Assembly (NCBI GenBank): GCA_963668465.1
Contig: OY764542.1
Coordinates: forward strand, 2,368,520-2,432,519
Origin: Dehalococcoidia bacterium
Lineage (GTDB): Bacteria; Chloroflexota; Dehalococcoidia; Lucifugimonadales; Australimonadaceae
Length of the DNA stretch: 64,000 nt
Direction of reading: 5' to 3'
Below the pieces are notes generated by a model. That model did not search any database. It was given only the letters and a program-made list of their open reading frames with translations, and was not told the origin of the DNA. The translations under genes and the position numbers were made by a program. Position 1 is the first letter of the stretch, and the number at the start of each line of letters is the position of its first letter. Below, piece after piece: positions 148 through 35,967 of the stretch.

Positions 148-1508
148 ATGTATGCGGAGAAGCTTCCACCACATGACGCAGAAGCGGAAGAAGCGGTAAT
201 AGGGTCCCTCCTCATCGATGGGGAGGTGATCAACCGTATCGCGCCGCTGGTCACGGTCAACGACTTCTACCGTGAACGCAACCGGTGGTGCTACGAAGCC
301 TGCCAGTCCCTCTACCATCGCGGCGAGCCTATAGACCAGATCAGCGTTGCCCGTGAGCTCTCGCTCAAGGAGCGCCTGGAGGAGGTCGGCGGTCCCGGCT
401 ACCTCAGCCACGTCATCGCCGCCGTCCCCACGTCCGTGCACGCTGAGCACTTCGCCCGCATCGTCAACCGCACTGCCACCATGCGCAGGCTCATCCAGGC
501 CGCGGGCGACATCGCATCCATCGGCTACGAGGACTCACCCGATACCGAGCAGGCCCTCGAACGCGCGGAAGACATCCTCTTCCGCGTCCGCAACACCCAC
601 GTCGTCCGCGACTTCGTAACGATCCGCGAGGTGCTGGACCAGTACCTCGAAGAATCGTCCGACCTCCCGCTCGACCACGGCGTCGCCCCATCCCCACCGG
701 ATTCGTCGACGTGGACAACGCGCTCGGACGCTTGCAACGGGGAGACCTCTTCATCCTTGCGGCGCGCCCCGCCTTGGGCAAGTCGACCCTCGCCATGAAC
801 ATCGCCCGGAACGCCGCGGGGCAGGGCGCCGTCGTCGCCGTTGTCAGCCTTGAGATGAGCCGCGAGCAACTCGCTCTCCGTCTCCTCTCTGCCGAGGCTG
901 AGGTCGACAGCCACCTCCTGCGCATCGGCCTGCTCGGCGACACCGCGCAGGCCCGCGTCATACACGGCATCGGCGCGCTTTCTGACCTCTCCATCTACAT
1001 GGACGACTCGCCGGCGCAGACCGTCCTGGAGATGCGCTCCAAGCTCCGGCGTCTGCACACCACCAGGAGCGTGGACCTCGTCATCGTCGACTACCTCCAA
1101 CTCATATCCGGGCGCGAGGACCGTGGCGAGAACCGGGTGCAGGAGTTGAGCGACATCACCCGGCAGTTGAAGGCCATCGCCCGTGACCTCAACGTACCGG
1201 TCATCGCCATCTCCCAGCTCTCCCGCGCCATCGAGCAGCGCCCCGACCACCATCCCCAGCTCTCCGACCTCCGGGAGTCCGGAAGCATCGAGCAGGACGC
1301 CGACGTCGTCGCGTTCATCCATCGTGCCGACAGGTACATGACTCCGGAGCAGTGGGAGCAGCGGCACCCCACCGACCCGTACCCGGAGAACCTTGCGCAA
1401 CTGATTATCGCGAAGAACCGTCACGGCCCCACGCGCAACATCCACCTCTATTTCGACGGCAAGTTCTCGCGCTTCCTGAACCTGCAGACCGAACCGGCGG
1501 CCCTATGA
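148..1508 (+). CDS. dnaB: Replicative DNA helicase DnaB; reading frame interrupted, needing one extra base in the C run at 686-689
   Basis: The N-terminal DnaB domain (AEAEEAVIGSLLIDGEVI...) lies in frame 1 up to about 687. The RecA-like C-terminal domain lies in frame 3 from about 690, with IPTGFVDVDNALGRLQRGDL, Walker A ARPALGKST, LVIVDYLQL, ISQLSR and RESGSIEQDAD. Restored length would be about 453 aa, typical for DnaB. Confidence 0.9.
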
Positions 1509-2158
1509 CCGCGTCCACGTTCCCCGGGTTCGGCGCTGCGGTGAAGCGCTTGCCCGTGCCTGCGCCGCTGCTCGCATCTCTCCTCGCCGACATCACCGAC
1601 TGTGCAGAGTTGAGATGCACGCTGCGCTTCCTCTGGTACGAGGCCCAGCAGAGCGGCGCGCCGAAGCGCGTACCCCTCTCCGCCCTGCGGACGGATGGCG
1701 TCCTGCTGGAAGCCCTCGGCTCCGTGGACGAGATTGAGCGTGGCATCGCCCTCGCCCTTGAGCGCGGCACGCTCATCGAGGCAGAGGACTGGCTCCTGCT
1801 GCGCACGGCGCAGAACGAGCGCGCCGCCGAGCGGTTCGGCCCCGCTCCTGCGCAGGCGGTGGCCGCCCACCCGTCCGAACGCCCCAACATCTTTCAGTTG
1901 TACGAAGAGAACGTTGGTATGCTGACGCCGTTGGTCGCCGACGAACTGCGCTCTGCGGAGGAGGAATACCCCGCCGGGTGGGTGGAGGCAGCCATACGCG
2001 AGGCGGCTGCAGGCAACGTCCGCAGTTGGCGCTACATCGAAGCGATACTGGAACGCTGGAAACGCGAAGGAAGAGGAACGAGGTCAAGTGGAAAGCCTGG
2101 GAGACATTCTGAGGCGCTTACAGCAGCGGAACTTCTCGAACGTCGCCGACGTCCCTGA
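1505..2158 (+). CDS. DnaD-like replication initiation / primosome protein (DnaD C-terminal, DnaB_2-type domain)
   Basis: The C-terminal stretch NIFQLYEENVGMLTPLVADELRSAEEEYPAGWVEAAIREAAAGNVRSWRYIEAILERWKREG fits the DnaD/DnaB_2 domain pattern. ATG at 1505 overlaps the dnaB stop (ATGA). The longer ORF from 1352 lies inside dnaB and was rejected. Confidence 0.7.
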   Translation: MTASTFPGFGAAVKRLPVPAPLLASLLADITDCAELRCTLRFLWYEAQQSGAPKRVPLSALRTDGVLLEALGSVDEIERGIALALERGTLIEAEDWLLLRTAQNERAAERFGPAPAQAVAAHPSERPNIFQLYEENVGMLTPLVADELRSAEEEYPAGWVEAAIREAAAGNVRSWRYIEAILERWKREGRGTRSSGKPGRHSEALTAAELLERRRRP

Positions 2159-3482
2159 GTGGGTGCAACAGCTCGACGCCGAGTCCCCTGTCGCTGACGC
2201 CTGCCCGACCTGCGGAGGTCACGGCTGGGTGCGCCGCGACCTGCCCGTCGGACACCCGGACTTCGGCCGCGCCTTTCCCTGCCTCTGCCAGATGCAGCGC
2301 AACGAGACGGGCCGCCTCGCCCGGCTGCAGCGCTACAGCAACCTCGGCGTGCTGCACAATGTCACGTTCGAGACGCTGGCCCCGAGCGGCCCCGGCGTCG
2401 GCCCTGAAGCCAACGCTCGCTATGACGCCGCGCTCCGCGCCGCCCGGTCTTTCGCCGAGGAGCCGGTAGGCTCGCTGCTCCTCACCGGCGGCCACGGCAC
2501 CGGCAAGACCTGTCTTGGCGCTGCTGCCGCCAACCGCCTGATGGGGCAGGGACGCCCCGTCCTCTTCACCTTTGTCCCTGACCTGCTGGACCAGCTCCGG
2601 GGCGGCTACGCGGACGACGCCGAAATCTCCCACGACGAGGTGTTCGACCAGGTCAAGAATGTCCCCATCCTTGTTCTGGACGACATCGGCGCGCACAACG
2701 GCACGCCATGGGCTGAGGAGAAGCTCTTTCAGGTCGTGAACCACCGCTACCTCAACGGCCTCCCCACCGTCCTCACGTCAGCCGTTCCCCTGGAGCGGCT
2801 GGACGGACGGCTCCAGAGCAAACTCACCGACCCGAGGAATGCGCTCGTCATAGACATGGGCGGCGCAACCGGTGCGAAGACCATGAGCCTCGGCGGCATA
2901 CCCCACGCCATGCTCCGCGACATGACCTTTGACTCATTCGAACCGCTGGGCCGTGCCCGGACGAGGGAGGACAGGGAAACGCTTGCTGCCGCTCTTCATG
3001 CCTCCCGGGCGTTTGCTGGGGAACCGGACGGCTGGCTCGTCCTCGTGGGCGGCCCCGGCTGTGGCAAGACCCACCTCGCCGTTGCCGTTGCCAACCAGCA
3101 ACTCGCGCAGGGCGGCGACGTATTCTTCGCCTTCGTGCCCGACCTGCTCGACCACCTCCGCTACACCTTCAGCCCGGACAGCCGGGTCACCTACGACGAG
3201 CTGTTCGACCGCATCAAGCAGGCGCCCCTGCTCATCATGGACGACCTCGGCGCCGAGAGCTCCACGTCCTGGGCGGACGAGAAGCTCTACCAGATCATCG
3301 TCCACCGGCATAACGCCCGCCTTCCCACCGTTATCACCATGCGCACCCTTCCATCCGGCCCCGCTGACCCCGTCGCTTCGCGCCTCAACGACGCGCGCAT
3401 GGTGACGGAGGTCCCTATCACCGCGCCGGACTACCGCCAGACGGGACGCGTCCGGCAGGAGCGCCGCCGCGATGTCTCATAG
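2088..3482 (+). CDS. DnaC/DnaI-like helicase loader with an N-terminal zinc ribbon and two tandem AAA+ modules
   Basis: Zinc ribbon: CPTCGGHGWV...FPCLC. Module 1: LLLTGGHGTGKT, FVPDLLDQLR, LVLDDIGAH, WAEEKLFQVVNHRY, LPTVLTS. Module 2: LVLVGGPGCGKT, FVPDLLDHLR, LIMDDLGAE, WADEKLYQIIVHRH, LPTVIT. The GTG start at 2088 overlaps the upstream gene by 71 nt; an alternative GTG lies at 2163, just after that gene's stop. Confidence 0.8.
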   Translation: MESLGDILRRLQQRNFSNVADVPEWVQQLDAESPVADACPTCGGHGWVRRDLPVGHPDFGRAFPCLCQMQRNETGRLARLQRYSNLGVLHNVTFETLAPSGPGVGPEANARYDAALRAARSFAEEPVGSLLLTGGHGTGKTCLGAAAANRLMGQGRPVLFTFVPDLLDQLRGGYADDAEISHDEVFDQVKNVPILVLDDIGAHNGTPWAEEKLFQVVNHRYLNGLPTVLTSAVPLERLDGRLQSKLTDPRNALVIDMGGATGAKTMSLGGIPHAMLRDMTFDSFEPLGRARTREDRETLAAALHASRAFAGEPDGWLVLVGGPGCGKTHLAVAVANQQLAQGGDVFFAFVPDLLDHLRYTFSPDSRVTYDELFDRIKQAPLLIMDDLGAESSTSWADEKLYQIIVHRHNARLPTVITMRTLPSGPADPVASRLNDARMVTEVPITAPDYRQTGRVRQERRRDVS

Positions 3483-3909
3483 CCCCCGATCGGGCGGCCC
3501 GGACGAGTGCGCGTTCTGCGGCATCGCATCCGGCGCGCTCCCGCGGGAGATCCGCTACCAGGACGATGAGCTCATTGCCTTCCACAACGCGTTGGACTGG
3601 GCACCGCTCATGTACCTCGTCGCGCCGGTCGTTCACATGAGCCAGCAGGACTTCTGGCAGTCGCCCCTCTTCTCCCGCGCCGCCCGGCTCGCCGTCGAGC
3701 TCGGCGAGACCGATGCCCCCGGCGGCTTTCGCATCGTCTCCAACTTCGGCGCCGACGCCATGCAGTCCCAGCCGCACGGCCACCTCCACGTCCTCGGCGG
3801 CGCGCACCTCGGCCTCTACATGGACTTCCCCGGCAAGAGCGACTTCTGGCTCCGCTTCTACGGCAGCGAACAACACGACCCCCTCACCTTCCGGAAGCGC
3901 CACCCGTGA
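3472..3909 (+). CDS. HIT (histidine triad) family protein
   Basis: Histidine triad HGHLHVLGG and N-terminal CAFCGI motif. The start overlaps the loader gene's stop by 11 nt. Confidence 0.85.
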   Translation: MSHSPRSGGPDECAFCGIASGALPREIRYQDDELIAFHNALDWAPLMYLVAPVVHMSQQDFWQSPLFSRAARLAVELGETDAPGGFRIVSNFGADAMQSQPHGHLHVLGGAHLGLYMDFPGKSDFWLRFYGSEQHDPLTFRKRHP

Positions 3910-3913
3910 GTAA

Positions 3914-3975
3914 CTTGTCATTTCGAGCGGAGTGCAGCGGAGCCGAGAAATCCCTCAGGAGACGCCCCGCCCATG
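3914..3975. repeat. 62-nt perfect direct repeat, copy 1 (GTCATTTCGAGCGGAGTGCAGCGGAGCCGAGAAATCCC... family)
   Basis: cttgtcatttcgagcggagtgcagcggagccgagaaatccctcaggagacgccccgcccatg is identical at 3914-3975 and 4097-4158. Confidence 0.9.
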
Positions 3976-3985
3976 GTGCCCCACT

Positions 3986-4096: not shown

Positions 4097-4158
4097 CTTG
4101 TCATTTCGAGCGGAGTGCAGCGGAGCCGAGAAATCCCTCAGGAGACGCCCCGCCCATG
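4097..4158. repeat. 62-nt perfect direct repeat, copy 2
   Basis: Identical to 3914-3975. Confidence 0.9.
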
Positions 4159-4172
4159 TTGCGCCCAGAAGC

Positions 4173-4213: not shown

Positions 4214-4591
4214 ATGACTGACGTCCTCCTCGTCGGCATGGGCGGCTTCATCGGCGCGGCGTCGCGATACGGCGTGATCCTCGGCGTATCCCGCCTGCTC
4301 GGCCAGCCCTCCTTCCCGTGGGGAGTGCTTGCCGTCAACGTCCTCGGCTCCCTCCTCATCGGCGTGCTTGCCGGACTAGCGGAGACGCGCCAGCTCTTCG
4401 GCCCGGGCGCGCGCCTCTTCCTCTTCGTCGGCGTACTCGGCGGTTTCACCACCTTCTCCGCCATAACCAACGACACCCTCACCCTCCTCCGCAACGCCGC
4501 CTATCTCTCCGCCGCCGCGAACGTCCTCCTCACCGTCGCCCTCGGCCTCGCCGCTGTCGCCATCGGCTACGTCGCCGCCCGCGCCCTCTGA
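4214..4591 (+). CDS. crcB: Fluoride ion channel CrcB/FluC
   Basis: 125-aa, four-TM protein with GGFIGAASRY, VNVLGSLLIG and GVLGGFTTFS motifs typical of CrcB. Confidence 0.85.
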   Translation: MTDVLLVGMGGFIGAASRYGVILGVSRLLGQPSFPWGVLAVNVLGSLLIGVLAGLAETRQLFGPGARLFLFVGVLGGFTTFSAITNDTLTLLRNAAYLSAAANVLLTVALGLAAVAIGYVAARAL

Positions 4592-32336: not shown

Positions 32337-33332
32337 TTACTTCTTCCCCAGGAACGTCATCATGCCGCGGAGCTCTGCTCCGACGGTCTCGATCTCGTGA
32401 CCGGCAGCCGCCTCCCGCATCGCCTTGAAGCGCGGCTGTCCTTCGTGGTTCTCGGCTATCCACTCGCGGGCGAACGAGCCGTCCTGGATCTCCTGCAGCA
32501 CGGTCTTCATCGCCGCGCGGGCGTGCTCGTCCACGACCCGGGAGCCGCGGCTGTAGTCGCCGTATTCCGCCGTTTCGCTCACGGAGTAGCGCATGTACTT
32601 CATGCCGCCCTCGTAGAGCAGGTCAACGATGAGCTTGAGTTCGTGCATCACCTCGAAGTAGGCGATCTCAGGCTGGTATCCCGCCTCCACGAGCACCTCG
32701 AAGGCGTTCGTGATGAGGCTGGTGACGCCGCCGCAAAGCACCGTCTGCTCGCCGAAGAGGTCGGTCTCCGTCTCTTCCTTGAACGTCGTCTCCACGATGC
32801 CGGCCCGGTCCGAGCCGATGCCCGCGCCGTAGGCCAGCGCGTTCGCCAGCGCGTTGCCCGAGGCGTCCTGGTGGATCGCCACGAGCGATGGCACTCCCTG
32901 GCCTTCGACGAACACCTCGCGCACCCGGTGGCCGGGCGCCTTGGGAGCGATCATCGTAACGTCCACGTCCGGGGGAGGGTTTATCTCTCCGAAATGGATG
33001 TTGAAGCCATGGGCGAACATCAACGTCTTGGAGCTGTCCAGGTTCGGCTCGATGGACTCCGTGTAGATGCTCCGCTGCGCGGTATCCGGCGCGAGCACCA
33101 TGATGACGTCGCTCTCCTTCGTGGCTTCTGCCGGGGTCCCGACCCGCAGCCCCTCTGCCTCTGCCTTCGCACGGCTGGAGCTTGTCTCGAGCAGGCCCAC
33201 CATCACGTCCACGCCGTTGTCGCGCAGGTTGAGCGCGTGCGCGTGCCCCTGGCTGCCGTAACCGATAACACCGACTCGCTTGCCGCTCAGCAGGCTGATG
33301 TCGGCATCTTCCTTGTAGTACACCTTCGCCAT
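32337..33332 (-). CDS. ilvC: Ketol-acid reductoisomerase (class I)
   Basis: [38 protein letters not shown]. Confidence 0.93.
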
Positions 33333-33386: not shown

Positions 33387-33956
33387 CTAGGGGACGACTT
33401 CCGTGTCCGGCGCGTTCTCCGCGGCGGGGACAGCCGTCTGTTTCGTGCCCGCGGCCACGCCGCCACGGGTCATCGCTATCCGTCCTGTACGCATCGTCTC
33501 GCGGACACCGAAGGGCTGAAGGAGTTGGATGAGCGCATCGATCTTCTCCTCGTCGCCGGTCACCTCGACGATGACCGTGTCCTTGCCCACGTCCACGATG
33601 CCTGCGCGGAAGATGTCCACTATCTGCATGATCTCCGCGCGGTTGTCCTTGTCGGACTTCACCTTCAGCAGCGCCATCTCGCGCATGACGCTGCTCTCCG
33701 TCGAGATGTTCGTCACCCGCACGACGTCTATCAGCTTGTAGAGCTGCTTCGTCACCTGCTCCACCACCCAATCCCCTCCGACGACAACGAACGTCATGCG
33801 GGAGAGTCCAGCTGTCTCGCTGCGGCTGACTGCCAGGCTGGAGATATTGAACCCGCGCCGCGAGAACAACCCCGCCACGCGCGCCAGCACGCCCGGCTTG
33901 TCGTGGACGAGCGCCGTTATCGTGTGGACGTGCCCGTTGAGGCTTACGTCAGCCAT
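33387..33956 (-). CDS. ilvN: Acetolactate synthase small (regulatory) subunit
   Basis: ACT domain HTITALVHDKPGVLARVAGLFSRRGFNISSLAV... Start at MADVSLNG, overlapping the ilvB 3' end by 13 nt. Confidence 0.9.
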   Translation of the reverse strand: MADVSLNGHVHTITALVHDKPGVLARVAGLFSRRGFNISSLAVSRSETAGLSRMTFVVVGGDWVVEQVTKQLYKLIDVVRVTNISTESSVMREMALLKVKSDKDNRAEIMQIVDIFRAGIVDVGKDTVIVEVTGDEEKIDALIQLLQPFGVRETMRTGRIAMTRGGVAAGTKQTAVPAAENAPDTEVVP

Positions 33957-35644
33957 GACAGCGCTTCCTGCCCGGCGGGCGACTCGATCATCTCGAACAC
34001 GCTCTCTCCTGCCGGAACGTGCGGGTACACGTTCTCCTCCGGCTCCACGTGGAAGTCGATGATGGCGGGCCCGTCCACTGCCGCAGCTTCTTCGAGGGCG
34101 GCCCGCACCTGCGGTTCGTCCGCCACGTGTTTCGCCCAGATGCCGTACGCCTCGGCGAGTTTCACGAAATCCGGGTTGCCGGTGTAGCCGGATGCCACAC
34201 GGGTGCCTCCGTAGAACAGGTCCTGCAACTGCCGCACGAGGCCGAGGTTGCCGTTGTTCAGGATGGCGAACTTCACGGGCACGTTGTGTTCCACGATGGT
34301 CGCCAGTTCGGACATCGTCATCTGGAAGCCGCCGTCTCCGGCGATGCTCCATACCTGCCGGTTGGGCTGCGCGAAGGCCGCCCCCATCGCCGCAGGCACC
34401 TCGAACCCCATCGTTCCCAGACCGCCGGACGTGATCCAGGAGCCCGGCTCCTTGAACACGTAGTGTTGGGCGGCCCACATCTGGTGCTGCCCTACGCCCG
34501 TTACGACGATGGCGCGTCCGTCCGTGACCTCGCACAGTTCGCGCACGACGTGCTGCGGACGAAGCCCCTTGCCCTGGCCGGGGTGCAGTGGATGCTCGGC
34601 GCGGAGCGCGTCCATCTCTGCTATCCACTCGGGGCGGGAGACCTGCTCTACCTGCTTCGCCAGCGCATGCATCACGCGCTTCGCGTCGCCGACGATGGGC
34701 ACGGTAACGCGAACGTTCTTGCCCACCTCGGCGGGGTCGATGTCGATGTGGATGACCTTGGCGTTCGGCGCAAAGGCGCTCAGCCTGCCCGTGACCCGGT
34801 CGTCGAACCGCATCCCGACCCCGATGATGAGGTCAGCGCGGTCTATCGCCCAGTTGTTGTACGCCTGGCCGTGCATCCCCGGCATGCCCATGCTCAGGAT
34901 GTGCTCGCCGGAGAAACTGCCGATGCCGAGCAGCGTCGTGATGACCGGTATCTGCGCCTTCTCAGCGACCTCCCGCACCTCTGCGAACGCGCCGGAGATG
35001 ATGGCGCCGTGTCCCACGAGCATCAGGGGCCGCTGCGAGTCCGCAATGAGTTGCGCGGCGCGCTTGATCATCCTCCCGTTCCCCTCCATGGTTGGCTTGT
35101 AGGAGGGGAGGTTCACATGCTCCGGGTAGTCGAAGTCGGCACTGTCGGTGAGCACGTCGCGCGGCAGATCGATGAGCACCGGGCCGGGGCGTCCCGTGCG
35201 TGCGATGTGGAAGGCCTCGCTGATGATGCGCGGGATGTCGGCCGTATCCATCACCAGGTAGTTGTGCTTGGTGATAGGCAGCGTGATGCCGGTGGTGTCG
35301 GTCTCCTGGAATGCGTCGCGCCCGATGGCGGCGCGCGGCACCTGCCCCGTGATCGCCACGACGGGAACGGAGTCCATCATGGCTGTTGCGAGCGGCGTGA
35401 CGAGGTTCGTCGCCCCAGGTCCTGAGGTCGCGATGGCGACGCCCACCTTGCCGGATGCTCGCGCGTAGCCATCCGCAGCGTGTCCGGCGTTCTGCTCGTG
35501 CCGCACGAGGATGTGCCGCAGTTGCGGATACTCCGGCAGCGTCTGGTAGAGCGGCAGTATCGCGCCGCCGGGAAGGCCGAACATGACGTCCGTCCCCTCC
35601 CGAACCAGGCTCTCACAAACCATCTGTGCGCCCGTCAAACGCAA
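33944..35644 (-). CDS. ilvB: Acetolactate synthase large (catalytic) subunit
   Basis: MRLTGAQMVCESLVREGTDVMFGLPGGAILP, and the ThDP motif GGLGTMGFEVPAAMGA...GDGGFQMT...LNNG. Confidence 0.93.
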   Translation of the reverse strand: MRLTGAQMVCESLVREGTDVMFGLPGGAILPLYQTLPEYPQLRHILVRHEQNAGHAADGYARASGKVGVAIATSGPGATNLVTPLATAMMDSVPVVAITGQVPRAAIGRDAFQETDTTGITLPITKHNYLVMDTADIPRIISEAFHIARTGRPGPVLIDLPRDVLTDSADFDYPEHVNLPSYKPTMEGNGRMIKRAAQLIADSQRPLMLVGHGAIISGAFAEVREVAEKAQIPVITTLLGIGSFSGEHILSMGMPGMHGQAYNNWAIDRADLIIGVGMRFDDRVTGRLSAFAPNAKVIHIDIDPAEVGKNVRVTVPIVGDAKRVMHALAKQVEQVSRPEWIAEMDALRAEHPLHPGQGKGLRPQHVVRELCEVTDGRAIVVTGVGQHQMWAAQHYVFKEPGSWITSGGLGTMGFEVPAAMGAAFAQPNRQVWSIAGDGGFQMTMSELATIVEHNVPVKFAILNNGNLGLVRQLQDLFYGGTRVASGYTGNPDFVKLAEAYGIWAKHVADEPQVRAALEEAAAVDGPAIIDFHVEPEENVYPHVPAGESVFEMIESPAGQEALSWLT

Positions 35645-35704: not shown

Positions 35705-35967
35705 GGTAAAAAAAGACCCGCCCCACGAAGGGACGGGCCGTTAACCCGCGGTACCACCCTAGTTCCCCGGCTCTTGATGGGCCGAGGCAGCTTTGCCTGC
35801 GCGGTAACGGCGCGCTCCGCTGGCCCTACTCTTGCTGTTCAGGCCAGCCGCTCGGGGACGAGTTCAGGGGGGCTTGTCCATCGCCGGTCTCGCACCAGAA
35901 CGACCGGCTCTCTGAGGTGCGCTTGCCCCGTACTACTTCCCTTCCCAGCGGAACGGATGTTAGAAGC
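35705..35967 (-). promoter_or_regulatory. T-box leader (tRNA-Leu responsive, CUC specifier) for the ilv-leu operon
   Basis: On the minus strand: conserved T-box AACUAGGGUGGUACCGCG (35764-35747); AGAGAG bulge and GGUGCGA distal-loop motifs; GAA-CUC-G specifier context (CUC at 35862-35860); UGGU bulge, implying an A discriminator. It ends in a terminator hairpin plus U7. Confidence 0.8.
35708..35737 (-). terminator. T-box terminator hairpin
   Basis: Minus strand CCCGUCCC-uucgu-GGGGCGGG followed by UCUUUUUUU, overlapping the 3' half of the T-box antiterminator. Confidence 0.75.

What the first reader, a model, noticed from the sequence alone, without database searches (positions are those of the whole stretch)
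1505..3482. Helicase-loading operon with a fused double-AAA+ DnaC-like loader
dnaB is followed, with overlapping stop/start signals, by a DnaD-like gene and a 464-aa protein. That protein has an N-terminal CxxC...CxC zinc ribbon and two complete DnaC/IstB-type AAA+ modules (about 2370-2853 and 2910-3479). The modules are colinear and clearly paralogous. Both keep Walker A (GGHGTGKT / GGPGCGKT), Walker B (LVLDDIG / LIMDDLG) and the W..EKL...HR..LPT block. Canonical DnaC/DnaI loaders have one AAA+ module per chain and act as oligomers on the DnaB hexamer. A covalent tandem would give a pseudo-dimeric building block, for example a trimer of dimers. I do not recall this architecture being characterised.
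Basis: partly seen in the sequence, partly recalled or inferred. Interest (0 to 1): 0.7.

Follow-up and report, generated by a model that had tools for sequence, protein, structure and literature searches.

The report
Tandem double-ATPase replicative helicase loader
This marine-type Chloroflexota bacterium encodes, next to its replicative helicase gene, a helicase loader with two DnaC/DnaI-type ATPase modules in one chain instead of one; the design is conserved in hundreds of uncultured relatives, and I found no published study of it.

Summary
ORF 2088-3482 (+) encodes 464 aa: a conserved N-terminal helix, a four-cysteine zinc ribbon, and two colinear DnaC/DnaI/IstB-clade AAA+ modules (47% identical over 144 aa, E=1e-47).

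It is not an assembly fusion. The uninterrupted two-module gene occurs in 80 of 80 fetched species-level Dehalococcoidia/SAR202 genomes (42-94% identity), almost always as rplI-dnaB-dnaD-like-loader. Of 269 retrieved relatives, 213 have two Walker A motifs. None of the 80 best viral relatives is tandem.

Both modules keep Walker A/B, an arginine finger and the four residues that match DnaC's ssDNA-binding residues, and both are equally conserved. They have diverged asymmetrically:
- Module 1 keeps the DnaC-type arginine coupler but has mostly lost the sensor I Asn and sensor II.
- Module 2 keeps sensor II but has no coupler.

Best reading: this is the chromosomal DnaB loader. It probably supplies two neighbouring protomers of a DnaC-like spiral, giving three chains per hexamer and two classes of ATP site. 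The stoichiometry is inferred, not shown.

I found no description of a tandem loader in the literature. Databases call it only "ATP-binding protein" or "DnaC". Verdict: a new variant of a known kind, of moderate to good interest.

The parts
148..1508 (+). dnaB replicative helicase gene. In this window it is broken by a 1-nt deletion near 685-689: frame 1 runs to about 686 and frame 3 from about 687.
   Evidence: Pfam DnaB (4.7e-28) and DnaB_C (2.7e-90), TIGR00665. The frameshift is seen. Six close relatives are in frame at this site.
1505..2158 (+). DnaD-domain (DnaD-like) adaptor gene, 217 aa. Its ATG overlaps the dnaB stop (ATGA).
   Evidence: PF07261 4.5e-10, TIGR01446 1.6e-10. PDB DnaD 2ZC2 2.8e-5 and B. 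subtilis DnaD 8OJJ 7e-4, at the matching C-terminal position. PHROG 'DnaD-like helicase loader' 5.6e-13. Immediately upstream of the loader in 77/80 loci.
2088..3482 (+). Tandem-AAA+ helicase loader gene, 464 aa, GTG start preceded by GGAAGAGGAACGAGG.
2088..2129 (+). Conserved N-terminal helix MESLGDILRRLQQR (residues 1-14), followed by a variable linker with low model confidence (to about residue 35).
   Evidence: Sequence conserved in homologues down to 47% identity. AF2 predicts a helix at 4-13, with pLDDT below 50 for 11-35.
2202..2288 (+). Four-cysteine zinc ribbon (C39, C42, C65, C67). Presumed helicase-binding domain; the role is inferred.
   Evidence: C39/C42 are present in all 63 sequences that cover them, C65 in 75/75 and C67 in 74/75. 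AF2 predicts strands 47-49 and 62-64, then helix 66-83.
2337..2855 (+). AAA+ module 1 (residues 84-256). Walker A at 2487-2510, Walker B D198/D199, coupler R241, finger K245. No sensor I Asn (A232) and no sensor II.
2856..2891 (+). Inter-module linker (residues 257-268), flexible in the model. Its length is tightly conserved across the family.
   Evidence: pLDDT below 50 at 261-266. The segment 257-278 is 22 residues long in 127/198 tandem proteins.
2892..3446 (+). AAA+ module 2 (residues 269-453). Walker A at 3048-3071, Walker B D385/D386, finger R432, sensor II R450. The coupler position is P428 and the sensor I position is R419.
3472..3909 (+). HIT-family gene. Its start overlaps the loader's end by 11 nt. 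It is the last gene of the coupled cluster; its link to replication is unknown.
   Evidence: PF01230 3.4e-7. It follows the loader in loci at 56% loader identity or above (L001-L035) and in a few more distant ones.

Best explanation
The 464-aa ORF is the chromosomal loader for the DnaB replicative helicase in a SAR202/Dehalococcoidia (Chloroflexota) bacterium. It is a DnaI/DnaC-type AAA+ loader whose ATPase module was duplicated in tandem long ago, behind a single N-terminal helix plus zinc ribbon. It is translationally coupled to dnaB and a DnaD-type adaptor in an rplI-dnaB-dnaD-like-loader cluster.

Shown here: the architecture, its conservation, the synteny, the membership of each module in the DnaC/DnaI/IstB clade, and the asymmetric motif pattern.

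Inferred mechanism:
1. The N-terminal domain docks one chain on DnaB.
2. The two modules act as two neighbouring protomers of a DnaC-like ATP-dependent spiral that binds ssDNA. Three chains would then supply the six AAA+ positions on one DnaB hexamer, a covalent version of the DnaI trimer of dimers, but with three rather than six helicase-binding domains.
3. Interfaces alternate, so two classes of ATP site arise. The module 2 pocket (Walker A/B plus sensor II R450), completed in trans by module 1's arginine coupler R241 and finger R/K245, would be the ssDNA-regulated hydrolytic site. The module 1 pocket (Walker A/B intact, sensor I Asn and sensor II mostly lost), completed by module 2's invariant R432, would be mainly an ATP-binding, assembly or slow site.

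My confidence is about 0.9 that this is a real, conserved tandem loader gene. It is about 0.45 for the 3:6 stoichiometry and the split of site roles. The single confidence value given for this explanation (0.6) is a blend of the two.
For: Identity.
- Pfam IstB_IS21 and NCBIfam PRK08116/DnaI/DnaC/IstB profiles each match in two stretches.
- Each half separately hits DnaI (2W58, 4M4W, 5HE8) and DnaC (6QEL, 3EC2) at 1e-8 to 1e-14.
- AF2 modules are confident (pLDDT 81-85). One-module-length fold matches reach TM 0.70-0.76 to Aquifex DnaC, DnaI and IstB.

Real and conserved.
- 80/80 genome loci carry a colinear full-length match.
- Two Walker A motifs occur in 115/120 of the closest clusters and 98/149 of the 50%-identity representatives.
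- M1 groups with M1 and M2 with M2 across proteins: 182 of 210 M1 and 156 of 212 M2 have all ten best hits of their own type.
- Mean identities are M1-M1 49.5%, M2-M2 49.8% and cross M1-M2 42.7%, against 35-36% to viral loaders. This indicates one old intragenic duplication with both copies under equal constraint.

Chromosomal role.
- dnaB lies upstream in 77/80 loci and the DnaD-like gene directly upstream in 77/80.
- rplI lies upstream on the same strand in 71/80.
- There is no second DnaC-like gene in the 64-kb window.

Both modules look DNA- and ATP-competent, in 198 tandem proteins.
- Walker A Lys 198/198 in both modules.
- First Walker B Asp 198 and 194.
- Equivalents of DnaC's ssDNA residues K143/F146/S177/Y179: R171 192, Y/F174 182, T/S206 187, W208 195; and R358 190, F/Y361 183, T/S393 187, W395 194.

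Asymmetry.
- M1 coupler Arg 174/198; M1 finger R 155 and K 39.
- A sensor II-like motif follows M1 in only 33/198.
- M2 finger Arg 195/198; M2 sensor II Arg 176/198; M2 coupler position is Pro in 119/198.
- Residue roles are taken from E. coli DnaC mutagenesis (PMC8213410).

Other support.
- Linker length is fixed at 22 residues in 127/198.
- Precedent: DnaI sits on DnaB as three dimers whose two members contact the helicase differently (PMC3791466).
Against: - No experiment or complex model supports any stoichiometry.
- AF2 gives no confident inter-module packing (pTM 0.48 for the full protein, 0.53 for the two-module core). The modules may therefore not contact each other within a chain.
- With one N-terminal domain per two modules, three of the six loader-binding sites on DnaB would stay empty, unlike the 6:6 DnaB-DnaC and DnaB-DnaI complexes.
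- Relatives with 1, 3 and 4 modules exist, and these do not all tile a hexamer.
- The sensor I position of module 2 is Arg in 102/198, not Asn, so its catalytic competence is also uncertain.
- Motif mapping past the ends of the HMMER alignments to DnaC is my own ungapped or one-gap extension. It is checked only against the published residue numbers R216, R220 and R237.
Confidence: 0.6

Rival explanations
1. Six chains bind one DnaB hexamer, one N-terminal domain per site as in DnaC and DnaI. Only one module per chain, probably module 2, forms the canonical loader spiral. Module 1 would then be a largely non-hydrolytic accessory ATP- and ssDNA-binding domain: a second tier, an extended filament on ssDNA, or a platform for DnaD or DnaA.
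For: Most family members, including this one, lack the sensor I Asn and sensor II in module 1. Single-module relatives with the same N-terminus (the P0179 cluster, 27 members) resemble module 2 most. AF2 predicts no fixed M1-M2 interface. All known DnaB-DnaC and DnaB-DnaI complexes are 6:6 (PMC8213410, PMC3791466).
Against: Module 1 is as conserved as module 2 (49.5% against 49.8%). It keeps invariant Walker A/B, all four ssDNA-residue equivalents, and the trans-acting coupler and finger arginines. Those arginines only make sense if module 1 completes a neighbour's ATP site within an AAA+ oligomer. The two-module model also does not superpose on stacked type II AAA+ proteins such as p97 (TM about 0.3, rmsd about 15 A), although the model's own inter-module orientation is of low confidence.
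Confidence: 0.3
2. The cluster is a prophage or mobile-element replication module, or a tandem IS21 IstB transposition helper, rather than the host's own loader.
For: DnaC/DnaI genes are thought to have been acquired from phages (PMC5109545). PHROGs 'DnaC-like helicase loader' and 'DnaD-like helicase loader' match strongly. One copy lies on a 291,720-bp record labelled chromosome 2 (L054).
Against: rplI-dnaB-dnaD-like-loader synteny is conserved across 71-77 of 80 species-level genomes at 42-94% loader identity. No transposase or phage genes flank it: the neighbours are purL and rplI in the close relative L015, and HIT, crcB and an amidohydrolase-like gene (not profile-checked) in the window and relatives. 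None of the 80 best viral relatives has two modules (0/80). The IstB equivalog score of 123 is below its cut-off of 200.
Confidence: 0.03
3. The 464-aa ORF is an artefact: two adjacent single-module genes fused by a sequencing or assembly error.
For: The window does contain at least one indel error or mutation, the 1-nt deletion in dnaB. A few related database entries look like assembly products; P0126 and P0122 carry near-identical repeated modules.
Against: The uninterrupted ORF occurs in 80/80 independent genomes, including closed chromosomes. The linker length is conserved. The modules are 47% identical, not near-identical. Module 2 has no N-terminal helicase-binding domain of its own.
Confidence: 0.01

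Closest known systems
Bacillus/Geobacillus/Staphylococcus DnaI with its DnaD partner (PDB 2W58, 4M4W, 5HE8)
   Same: - Best sequence matches for both modules.
- Walker B is Asp-Asp, as in DnaI.
- The N-terminal domain binds zinc by inference, and a DnaD-domain gene is the partner.
- DnaI sits on DnaB as a trimer of dimers.
   Different: - Two AAA+ modules per chain behind one N-terminal domain.
- The N-terminal domain is a short CxxC...CxC ribbon with no Pfam DnaI_N match.
- The DnaI equivalog score is 133, below its cut-off of 228.
- No second co-loader (B. subtilis DnaB type) is seen in the cluster.
E. coli and Aquifex DnaC (PDB 6QEL/6QEM, 3ECC)
   Same: - AAA+ fold (TM 0.60-0.76).
- Equivalents of the ssDNA-binding residues K143/F146/S177/Y179 in both modules.
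- Arginine finger in both modules.
- DnaC-type arginine coupler, four residues before the finger, in module 1.
   Different: - DnaC has one module, a helical N-terminal domain without zinc, and a Walker B Asp-Glu.
- It forms a 6:6 complex with six equivalent ATP sites.
- Here sensor I and sensor II are split unevenly between the two modules.
IS21 IstB transposition helper (PDB 5BQ5, 8Q3W)
   Same: Same AAA+ clade; the top Pfam family is IstB_IS21. Module 2, like IstB, lacks the arginine coupler.
   Different: There is no IstA neighbour, the context is chromosomal next to dnaB, the equivalog cut-off is not reached, and the protein is tandem.
Single-module zinc-ribbon loaders of Chloroflexota (P0179 cluster; Ktedonobacterales P0243) and of phages (L081-L160)
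   Same: Same N-terminal helix, zinc ribbon and module type. They are 57-65% identical to module 2.
   Different: They have one module. They are the likely ancestral state or a secondary reduction. Viral relatives are all single-module.
Type II AAA+ proteins (p97/VCP, NSF, ClpB) and heteromeric loaders with unequal ATP sites (RFC, ORC-Cdc6). These are analogies only.
   Same: Two AAA+ modules in one chain, or a division of labour between catalytic and degenerate sites.
   Different: They belong to different AAA+ clades. The two-module superposition is poor (TM about 0.3, rmsd about 15 A). There is no evidence for stacked rings here.

Membership tests
DnaC/DnaI/IstB clade of AAA+ ATPases (Pfam PF01695, COG1484) | Profile match above the curated threshold | tested here: met
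   PF01695 scores 102 bits against a cut-off of 24, in two stretches. NCBIfam PRK08116 scores 216 against 189.
DnaC/DnaI/IstB clade of AAA+ ATPases (Pfam PF01695, COG1484) | Walker A GxxGxGK[ST] and Walker B hhhhD[DE] | tested here: met
   Present in both modules. The Walker A Lys is 198/198 in each; the first Walker B Asp is 198 and 194 of 198.
DnaC/DnaI/IstB clade of AAA+ ATPases (Pfam PF01695, COG1484) | Fold of the initiator/loader AAA+ domain | tested here: met
   Foldseek TM 0.70-0.76, rmsd 2.7-4.3 A, to 3ECC, 2W58, 5HE8 and 5BQ5 over about 165-195 columns, one module's length.
DnaC/DnaI/IstB clade of AAA+ ATPases (Pfam PF01695, COG1484) | Trans-acting arginine finger | tested here: met
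   M1 has R in 155 and K in 39 of 198 (K245 in the window). M2 has R432 in 195/198. The mapping is by alignment to DnaC R220.
DnaC/DnaI/IstB clade of AAA+ ATPases (Pfam PF01695, COG1484) | Sensor I polar residue and sensor II arginine in every ATPase module | tested here: not met
   M1 has A232 in the window (family: S 61, N 59, A 45 of 198), and a sensor II-like motif follows M1 in only 33/198. M2 has sensor II R450 in 176/198, but its sensor I position is Arg in 102/198.
Canonical DnaC/DnaI helicase loaders | One AAA+ module per chain | tested here: not met
   Two modules, 47% identical. The design is conserved in 213 of 269 retrieved relatives.
Canonical DnaC/DnaI helicase loaders | Binds and loads DnaB; ATPase stimulated by ssDNA and DnaB | not testable with these tools
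   Only context supports it: translational coupling to dnaB, and synteny in 77/80 loci.
DnaI (NCBIfam NF006505 equivalog; Pfam DnaI_N) | Equivalog score and DnaI-type N-terminal zinc domain | tested here: not met
   The score is 132.7 against a cut-off of 228, and there is no DnaI_N hit. A different four-cysteine ribbon is present instead.
DnaC (NCBIfam NF005931 equivalog) | Equivalog score | tested here: not met
   107 against a cut-off of 357.
IS21 IstB (NCBIfam NF038214 equivalog) | Equivalog score and an adjacent IstA transposase | tested here: not met
   123.4 against a cut-off of 200. The neighbours are dnaB, the dnaD-like gene and HIT.
DnaD family (PF07261 / TIGR01446), for the middle gene | C-terminal DnaD (DDBH2) domain | tested here: met
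   PF07261 scores 39.5 against 22 and TIGR01446 scores 41 against 24.95. PDB 2ZC2 and 8OJJ match.
DnaD family (PF07261 / TIGR01446), for the middle gene | N-terminal winged-helix (DDBH1) domain and DnaA binding | not tested
   No profile hit to residues 1-125. No structure was predicted for this protein.

The most novel reading that the evidence does not exclude
SAR202/Dehalococcoidia load DnaB with a loader that works as a trimer of covalent, functionally split dimers. It would have three helicase-binding domains per hexamer and alternating regulated-hydrolytic (module 2 pocket) and structural (module 1 pocket) ATP sites. That would be a bacterial counterpart of the unequal ATP sites of RFC and ORC. 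The 1-, 2-, 3- and 4-module relatives would further show that the loader spiral can be built from chains of different valency, so six equivalent loader-helicase contacts are not needed to open DnaB.
Probability: 0.35. Interest if true: 0.7.

Novelty: new variant of a known kind. Interest (0 to 1): 0.58.

Why it matters
Work on E. coli DnaC and Bacillus DnaI cannot easily ask how many loader ATP sites and how many loader-helicase contacts are needed to open and close the DnaB ring, because there all six protomers are identical. A natural covalent tandem lets each class of site be mutated separately, and it fixes which protomers are neighbours. Here nature has already split the arginine coupler and sensor II between the two copies.

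The finding also revises the picture of replication initiation in a large, ecologically important and almost wholly uncultured clade, the SAR202/Dehalococcoidia of oceans, sponges and sediments. In these genomes the gene is annotated only as "ATP-binding protein" or "DnaC".

It gives a clean example of intragenic duplication followed by subfunctionalisation within an AAA+ oligomer.

Tried and rejected
1. Assembly-fusion artefact: rejected on the basis.

2. Inter-module geometry from AlphaFold2: inconclusive. The full protein gave pLDDT 81 and pTM 0.48; the two-module core with a deeper alignment gave pLDDT 84.7 and pTM 0.53. The modules fold confidently but their mutual orientation is not predicted.

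3. Foldseek for a solved two-module analogue: only p97-type proteins came up, at TM about 0.3 and rmsd about 15 A. This gave no useful analogue.

4. Phage origin of the tandem: the 80 best viral relatives are all single-module.

5. Literature: five searches gave no description of a tandem loader. The library does not hold most subscription-journal papers, so absence is not proof.

6. Taxonomy beyond Chloroflexota: every named member of 20 sampled clusters is Chloroflexota, Dehalococcoidia, SAR202 or Ktedonobacterales. Most members are unnamed, so the breadth is not settled, and no cultured host was identified.

7. The HMMER alignment to DnaC placed K245 opposite R216. I rejected that in favour of a one-gap alignment (R241 to R216, K245 to R220), because it reproduces the conserved R-x3-R spacing described for the coupler and finger.

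8. Co-variation between module 1 site residues and module 2 trans residues: it shows that sensor I Asn and sensor II in module 1 are kept or lost together (32/59 against 1/139). It does not decide which interface is intramolecular, and the counts are not phylogenetically independent.

Full report
**1. What is in the sequence**

The window is about 65% G+C. Positions 148-3909 (+) carry four tightly packed genes.

- **dnaB, 148-1508.** It matches Pfam DnaB and DnaB_C and TIGR00665.
- **A 217-aa DnaD-domain gene, 1505-2158.** It matches PF07261 at 4.5e-10 and TIGR01446 at 1.6e-10. By sequence it matches the solved DnaD C-terminal domains 2ZC2 and B. subtilis 8OJJ, at the equivalent position in a protein of similar length.
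- **A 464-aa ORF, 2088-3482.**
- **A HIT-family gene, 3472-3909.**

The junctions are overlapping. There is an ATGA overlap at 1505-1508. The DnaD-like gene and the 464-aa ORF overlap by 71 nt. The loader and the HIT gene overlap by 11 nt.

The GTG at 2088 follows a purine-rich GGAAGAGGAACGAGG. It is the true start, because MESLGDIL(K/R)RL is conserved at the N-terminus of homologues down to 47% identity. Related loci show the same overlap with the upstream gene.

**2. The duplication is real**

- The two halves align without gaps over 144 residues at 47% identity, E=1e-47.
- Pfam IstB_IS21 and NCBIfam PRK08116, DnaI, DnaC and IstB models each match in two stretches.
- Each half on its own finds DnaI (2W58, 4M4W, 5HE8) and DnaC (6QEL, 3EC2/3ECC) among solved structures at 1e-8 to 1e-14.
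- AlphaFold2 folds both modules confidently: mean pLDDT 81 for the full protein and 84.7 for the two-module core.
- Foldseek gives one-module-length matches (about 165-195 aligned columns) to Aquifex DnaC (TM 0.76, rmsd 3.7-3.8 A), DnaI (0.70-0.76), IstB (0.70-0.71) and E. coli DnaC (0.60-0.66).
- The repeat unit is about 185 residues: 84-268 and 269-453.
- Ahead of the first unit lie a conserved helix (1-14), a variable low-confidence linker, and a CxxC...CxC ribbon (C39, C42, C65, C67; conserved) followed by helix 66-83.

**3. It is not an artefact, and it is widespread**

- A scan of one genome per species found 250 relatives. The best 80 are all Dehalococcoidia, SAR202 or Chloroflexota genomes, nearly all metagenome-assembled, including closed chromosomes. 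Each has a colinear full-length match at 42-94% identity. The window itself therefore comes from this clade.
- Two Walker A motifs are present in 115 of the 120 closest 90%-identity clusters and in 98 of 149 further 50%-identity representatives.
- In 198 clean tandem proteins, the segment between the last strand of module 1 and the start of module 2 is exactly 22 residues in 127.
- Named members of 20 sampled clusters are all Chloroflexota, annotated 'ATP-binding protein' or 'DNA replication protein DnaC'.
- Among the 80 best of 277 viral relatives, none has two modules.

**4. Genomic role**

- dnaB lies upstream in 77 of the 80 genome loci, and the DnaD-like gene lies directly upstream of the loader in 77.
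- In the close relative L015 the genes further upstream are purL and rplI.
- An L9 gene lies upstream on the same strand in 71 of 80 loci. Seven of the other nine loci have too little upstream DNA (contig edge) to tell.
- rplI-dnaB is the usual bacterial chromosomal arrangement (general knowledge).
- No other DnaC-like sequence occurs in the 64-kb window.
- Brezellec et al. 2016 (PMC5109545) reported one acquisition of a dna[CI] gene in Chloroflexi. Their main text does not mention a tandem form.

This is therefore the host's own helicase-loading cluster.

**5. History of the duplication**

- Module 1 sequences group with module 1, and module 2 with module 2, across proteins. All ten best hits are of the same type for 182 of 210 M1 and 156 of 212 M2.
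- Mean pairwise identity is 49.5% among M1, 49.8% among M2, and 42.7% between types. It is 35-36% to viral single-module loaders.
- This points to one old duplication inside the Chloroflexota loader lineage, with both copies under equal purifying selection.
- Single-module relatives with the same N-terminus exist. One is the P0179 cluster (281 aa, 27 members, Dehalococcoidia MAGs), which is closest to M2. Another is the Ktedonobacterales P0243.
- Forms with more modules also exist. P0121 (827 aa) has four diverged modules of types M1-M1-M1-M2. P0122 and P0120 have three. P0122 and P0126 contain near-identical repeats and may be assembly products.

**6. Anatomy of the two ATP sites**

I mapped residues onto E. 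coli DnaC using the HMMER alignments and the residue roles established by Puri et al. 2021 (PMC8213410). Those roles are Walker A K112, Walker B E170, sensor I N203, arginine coupler R216, arginine finger R220, sensor II R237, and ssDNA residues K143/F146/S177/Y179. Beyond DnaC residue 216 (module 1) and 200 (module 2), the mapping is my own ungapped or one-gap extension. It keeps the R-x3-R spacing of the coupler and finger.

Counts in 198 tandem proteins (the 75-sequence alignment agrees):

| Feature | Module 1 | Module 2 |
|---|---|---|
| Walker A Lys | 198/198 | 198/198 |
| First Walker B Asp | 198 | 194 |
| Second Walker B acidic residue (Asp, as in DnaI) | 183 | 181 |
| K143 equivalent | R171, 192 | R358, 190 |
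| F146 equivalent | Y/F174, 182 | F/Y361, 183 |
| S177 equivalent | T/S206, 187 | T/S393, 187 |
| Y179 equivalent | W208, 195 | W395, 194 |
| Arginine coupler | R241, 174 | Pro at the position, 119 (Arg in 41) |
| Arginine finger | R 155 / K 39 (K245 in the window) | R432, 195 |
| Sensor I position | S 61, N 59, A 45 (A232 in the window) | Arg 102 (R419 in the window) |
| Sensor II | [DNP][YF]R-like motif follows M1 in only 33 | R450, 176 |

In module 1 the sensor I Asn and the sensor II-like motif are kept or lost together: 32 of 59 against 1 of 139. About a sixth of the family therefore still has a canonical module 1 pocket, while the majority, including this window, has a reduced one.

**7. 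How it most likely works**

Shown: a conserved, chromosomal, dnaB-coupled protein with one N-terminal zinc-ribbon domain and two DnaC/DnaI-type modules. Both modules retain the residues for ATP binding, ssDNA binding and trans-activation of a neighbour.

Inferred:
- The trans-acting arginines in both modules imply that each module sits in an AAA+ oligomer next to another module.
- The fixed 22-residue linker suggests that the neighbour is the other module of the same chain.
- Three chains would then give the six-position cracked spiral seen for DnaC on DnaB, with alternating intra- and inter-chain interfaces and only three helicase-binding domains.
- The module 2 pocket (with sensor II), completed by module 1's coupler and finger, would be the ssDNA-gated hydrolytic site. 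This follows from the role of R216 in DnaC.
- The module 1 pocket, completed by module 2's invariant finger, would mainly bind ATP to hold the assembly together.
- The crystal structure of DnaB with B. subtilis DnaI shows three loader dimers whose two members contact the helicase differently (PMC3791466). A dimeric building block therefore has precedent.
- The DnaD-like protein would act upstream as the adaptor, as DnaD does in Bacillus (general knowledge).

I put about 0.9 on the identity and about 0.45 on this stoichiometry and division of labour.

**8. Rivals**

- **A 6:6 complex.** Only module 2 would form the spiral and module 1 would be an accessory domain. This fits module 1's lost sensors, the M2-like single-module relatives and the lack of a predicted M1-M2 interface. 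It does not explain why module 1 keeps its finger, its coupler and equal overall conservation. Confidence 0.3.
- **A phage, mobile-element or IstB module.** The synteny argues against it. So do the absence of tandem forms in viral contigs and the sub-threshold IstB score. Confidence 0.03.
- **An assembly fusion.** Excluded; confidence 0.01.

**9. What did not work**

- AF2 gave pTM of only 0.48 and 0.53, so no inter-module geometry can be claimed.
- Two-module Foldseek hits are p97-type proteins at TM about 0.3 and rmsd about 15 A, and are uninformative.
- Whole genomes could not be scanned for dciA or a second loader.
- No cultured host was identified.

**10. Novelty and verdict**

Five full-text searches found no paper describing a DnaC/DnaI loader with two AAA+ modules. 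The library lacks most subscription-journal papers, so this is absence of evidence only. The proteins are in public databases under generic names.

I classify it as a new variant of a known kind: a member of the DnaC/DnaI/IstB AAA+ clade that fails the 'one module per chain' feature of canonical loaders, and the equivalog thresholds for DnaI, DnaC and IstB. Interest is 0.58. A replication specialist would find a conserved, naturally asymmetric covalent loader dimer unexpected and experimentally useful, but it remains a domain-architecture variant in uncultured bacteria with no functional data.

**11. Noticed in passing**

- The window's dnaB carries a 1-nt deletion in GTCGC-CCCATC (about 685-689) that six close relatives lack.
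- A 69-nt direct repeat lies at 3914-3982 and 4097-4165.
- A T-box leader (35955-35726, minus strand) precedes ilvB and ilvC.
- One operon copy lies on a 291,720-bp 'chromosome 2' record (L054).

Noticed in passing
window 148-1508, break at about 685-689: dnaB is split into two frames by a 1-nt deletion in GTCGC-CCCATC. Six close relatives (L001, L005, L010, L014, L015, L027) have GTCGC[G/C]CCCATC and an intact 454-aa gene. Because dnaB is essential, this is probably a sequencing or assembly indel in a C run, otherwise a pseudogene. An in-frame 3-nt deletion lies about 20 nt upstream.
   Followed up: yes
window 3914-3982 and 4097-4165: A 69-nt direct repeat (97% identical, 183 nt apart) lies in the spacer between the HIT gene and crcB (4214-4591). 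Its 35-nt core occurs only at these two places in the window. No Rfam family, including the fluoride riboswitch, reached threshold there.
   Followed up: partly
window 35726-35955 (-), with 33947-35644 (-) and 32340-33332 (-): A T-box leader (Rfam RF00230, 96.9 bits, E=4.7e-20) lies upstream of an acetolactate-synthase large-subunit gene (three TPP-enzyme domains) and ketol-acid reductoisomerase (ilvC). The ilv operon therefore appears to be T-box controlled.
   Followed up: partly
proteins P0121, P0122, P0120 (relatives, not in the window): Some relatives have more than two modules. P0121 (827 aa, on contigs up to 64 kb) has four diverged modules of types M1-M1-M1-M2, each followed by a DYR-like motif. 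P0122 and P0120 have three. P0122 and P0126 contain near-identical repeats and may be assembly artefacts.
   Followed up: partly
proteins P0179/P0205 (Dehalococcoidia MAGs) and P0243 (Ktedonobacterales): These single-module loaders have the same MESLGDIL N-terminus and zinc ribbon. Their module is closest to module 2 of the tandem. P0243-type proteins carry a linker of about 200 residues before the zinc ribbon.
   Followed up: partly
L054 (OZ219749.1, 291,720 bp, labelled chromosome 2): One rplI-dnaB-dnaD-like-tandem loader cluster sits on a small second replicon record of a Dehalococcoidia MAG. I did not check whether that genome has another copy.
   Followed up: no
L071, L078, L079; L025, L030; L033, L047, L049: Synteny varies in a few loci. 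Three loci have dnaB directly abutting the loader with no DnaD-like gene detected. Two have no dnaB within 6 kb upstream. Three have about 1-2 kb inserted between dnaB and the DnaD-like gene.
   Followed up: no
loader residue 419 (window 3342-3344): The position aligned with DnaC sensor I Asn203 in module 2 is Arg in 102 of 198 tandem proteins. An arginine there is unusual for AAA+ proteins and its role is unexplained.
   Followed up: partly
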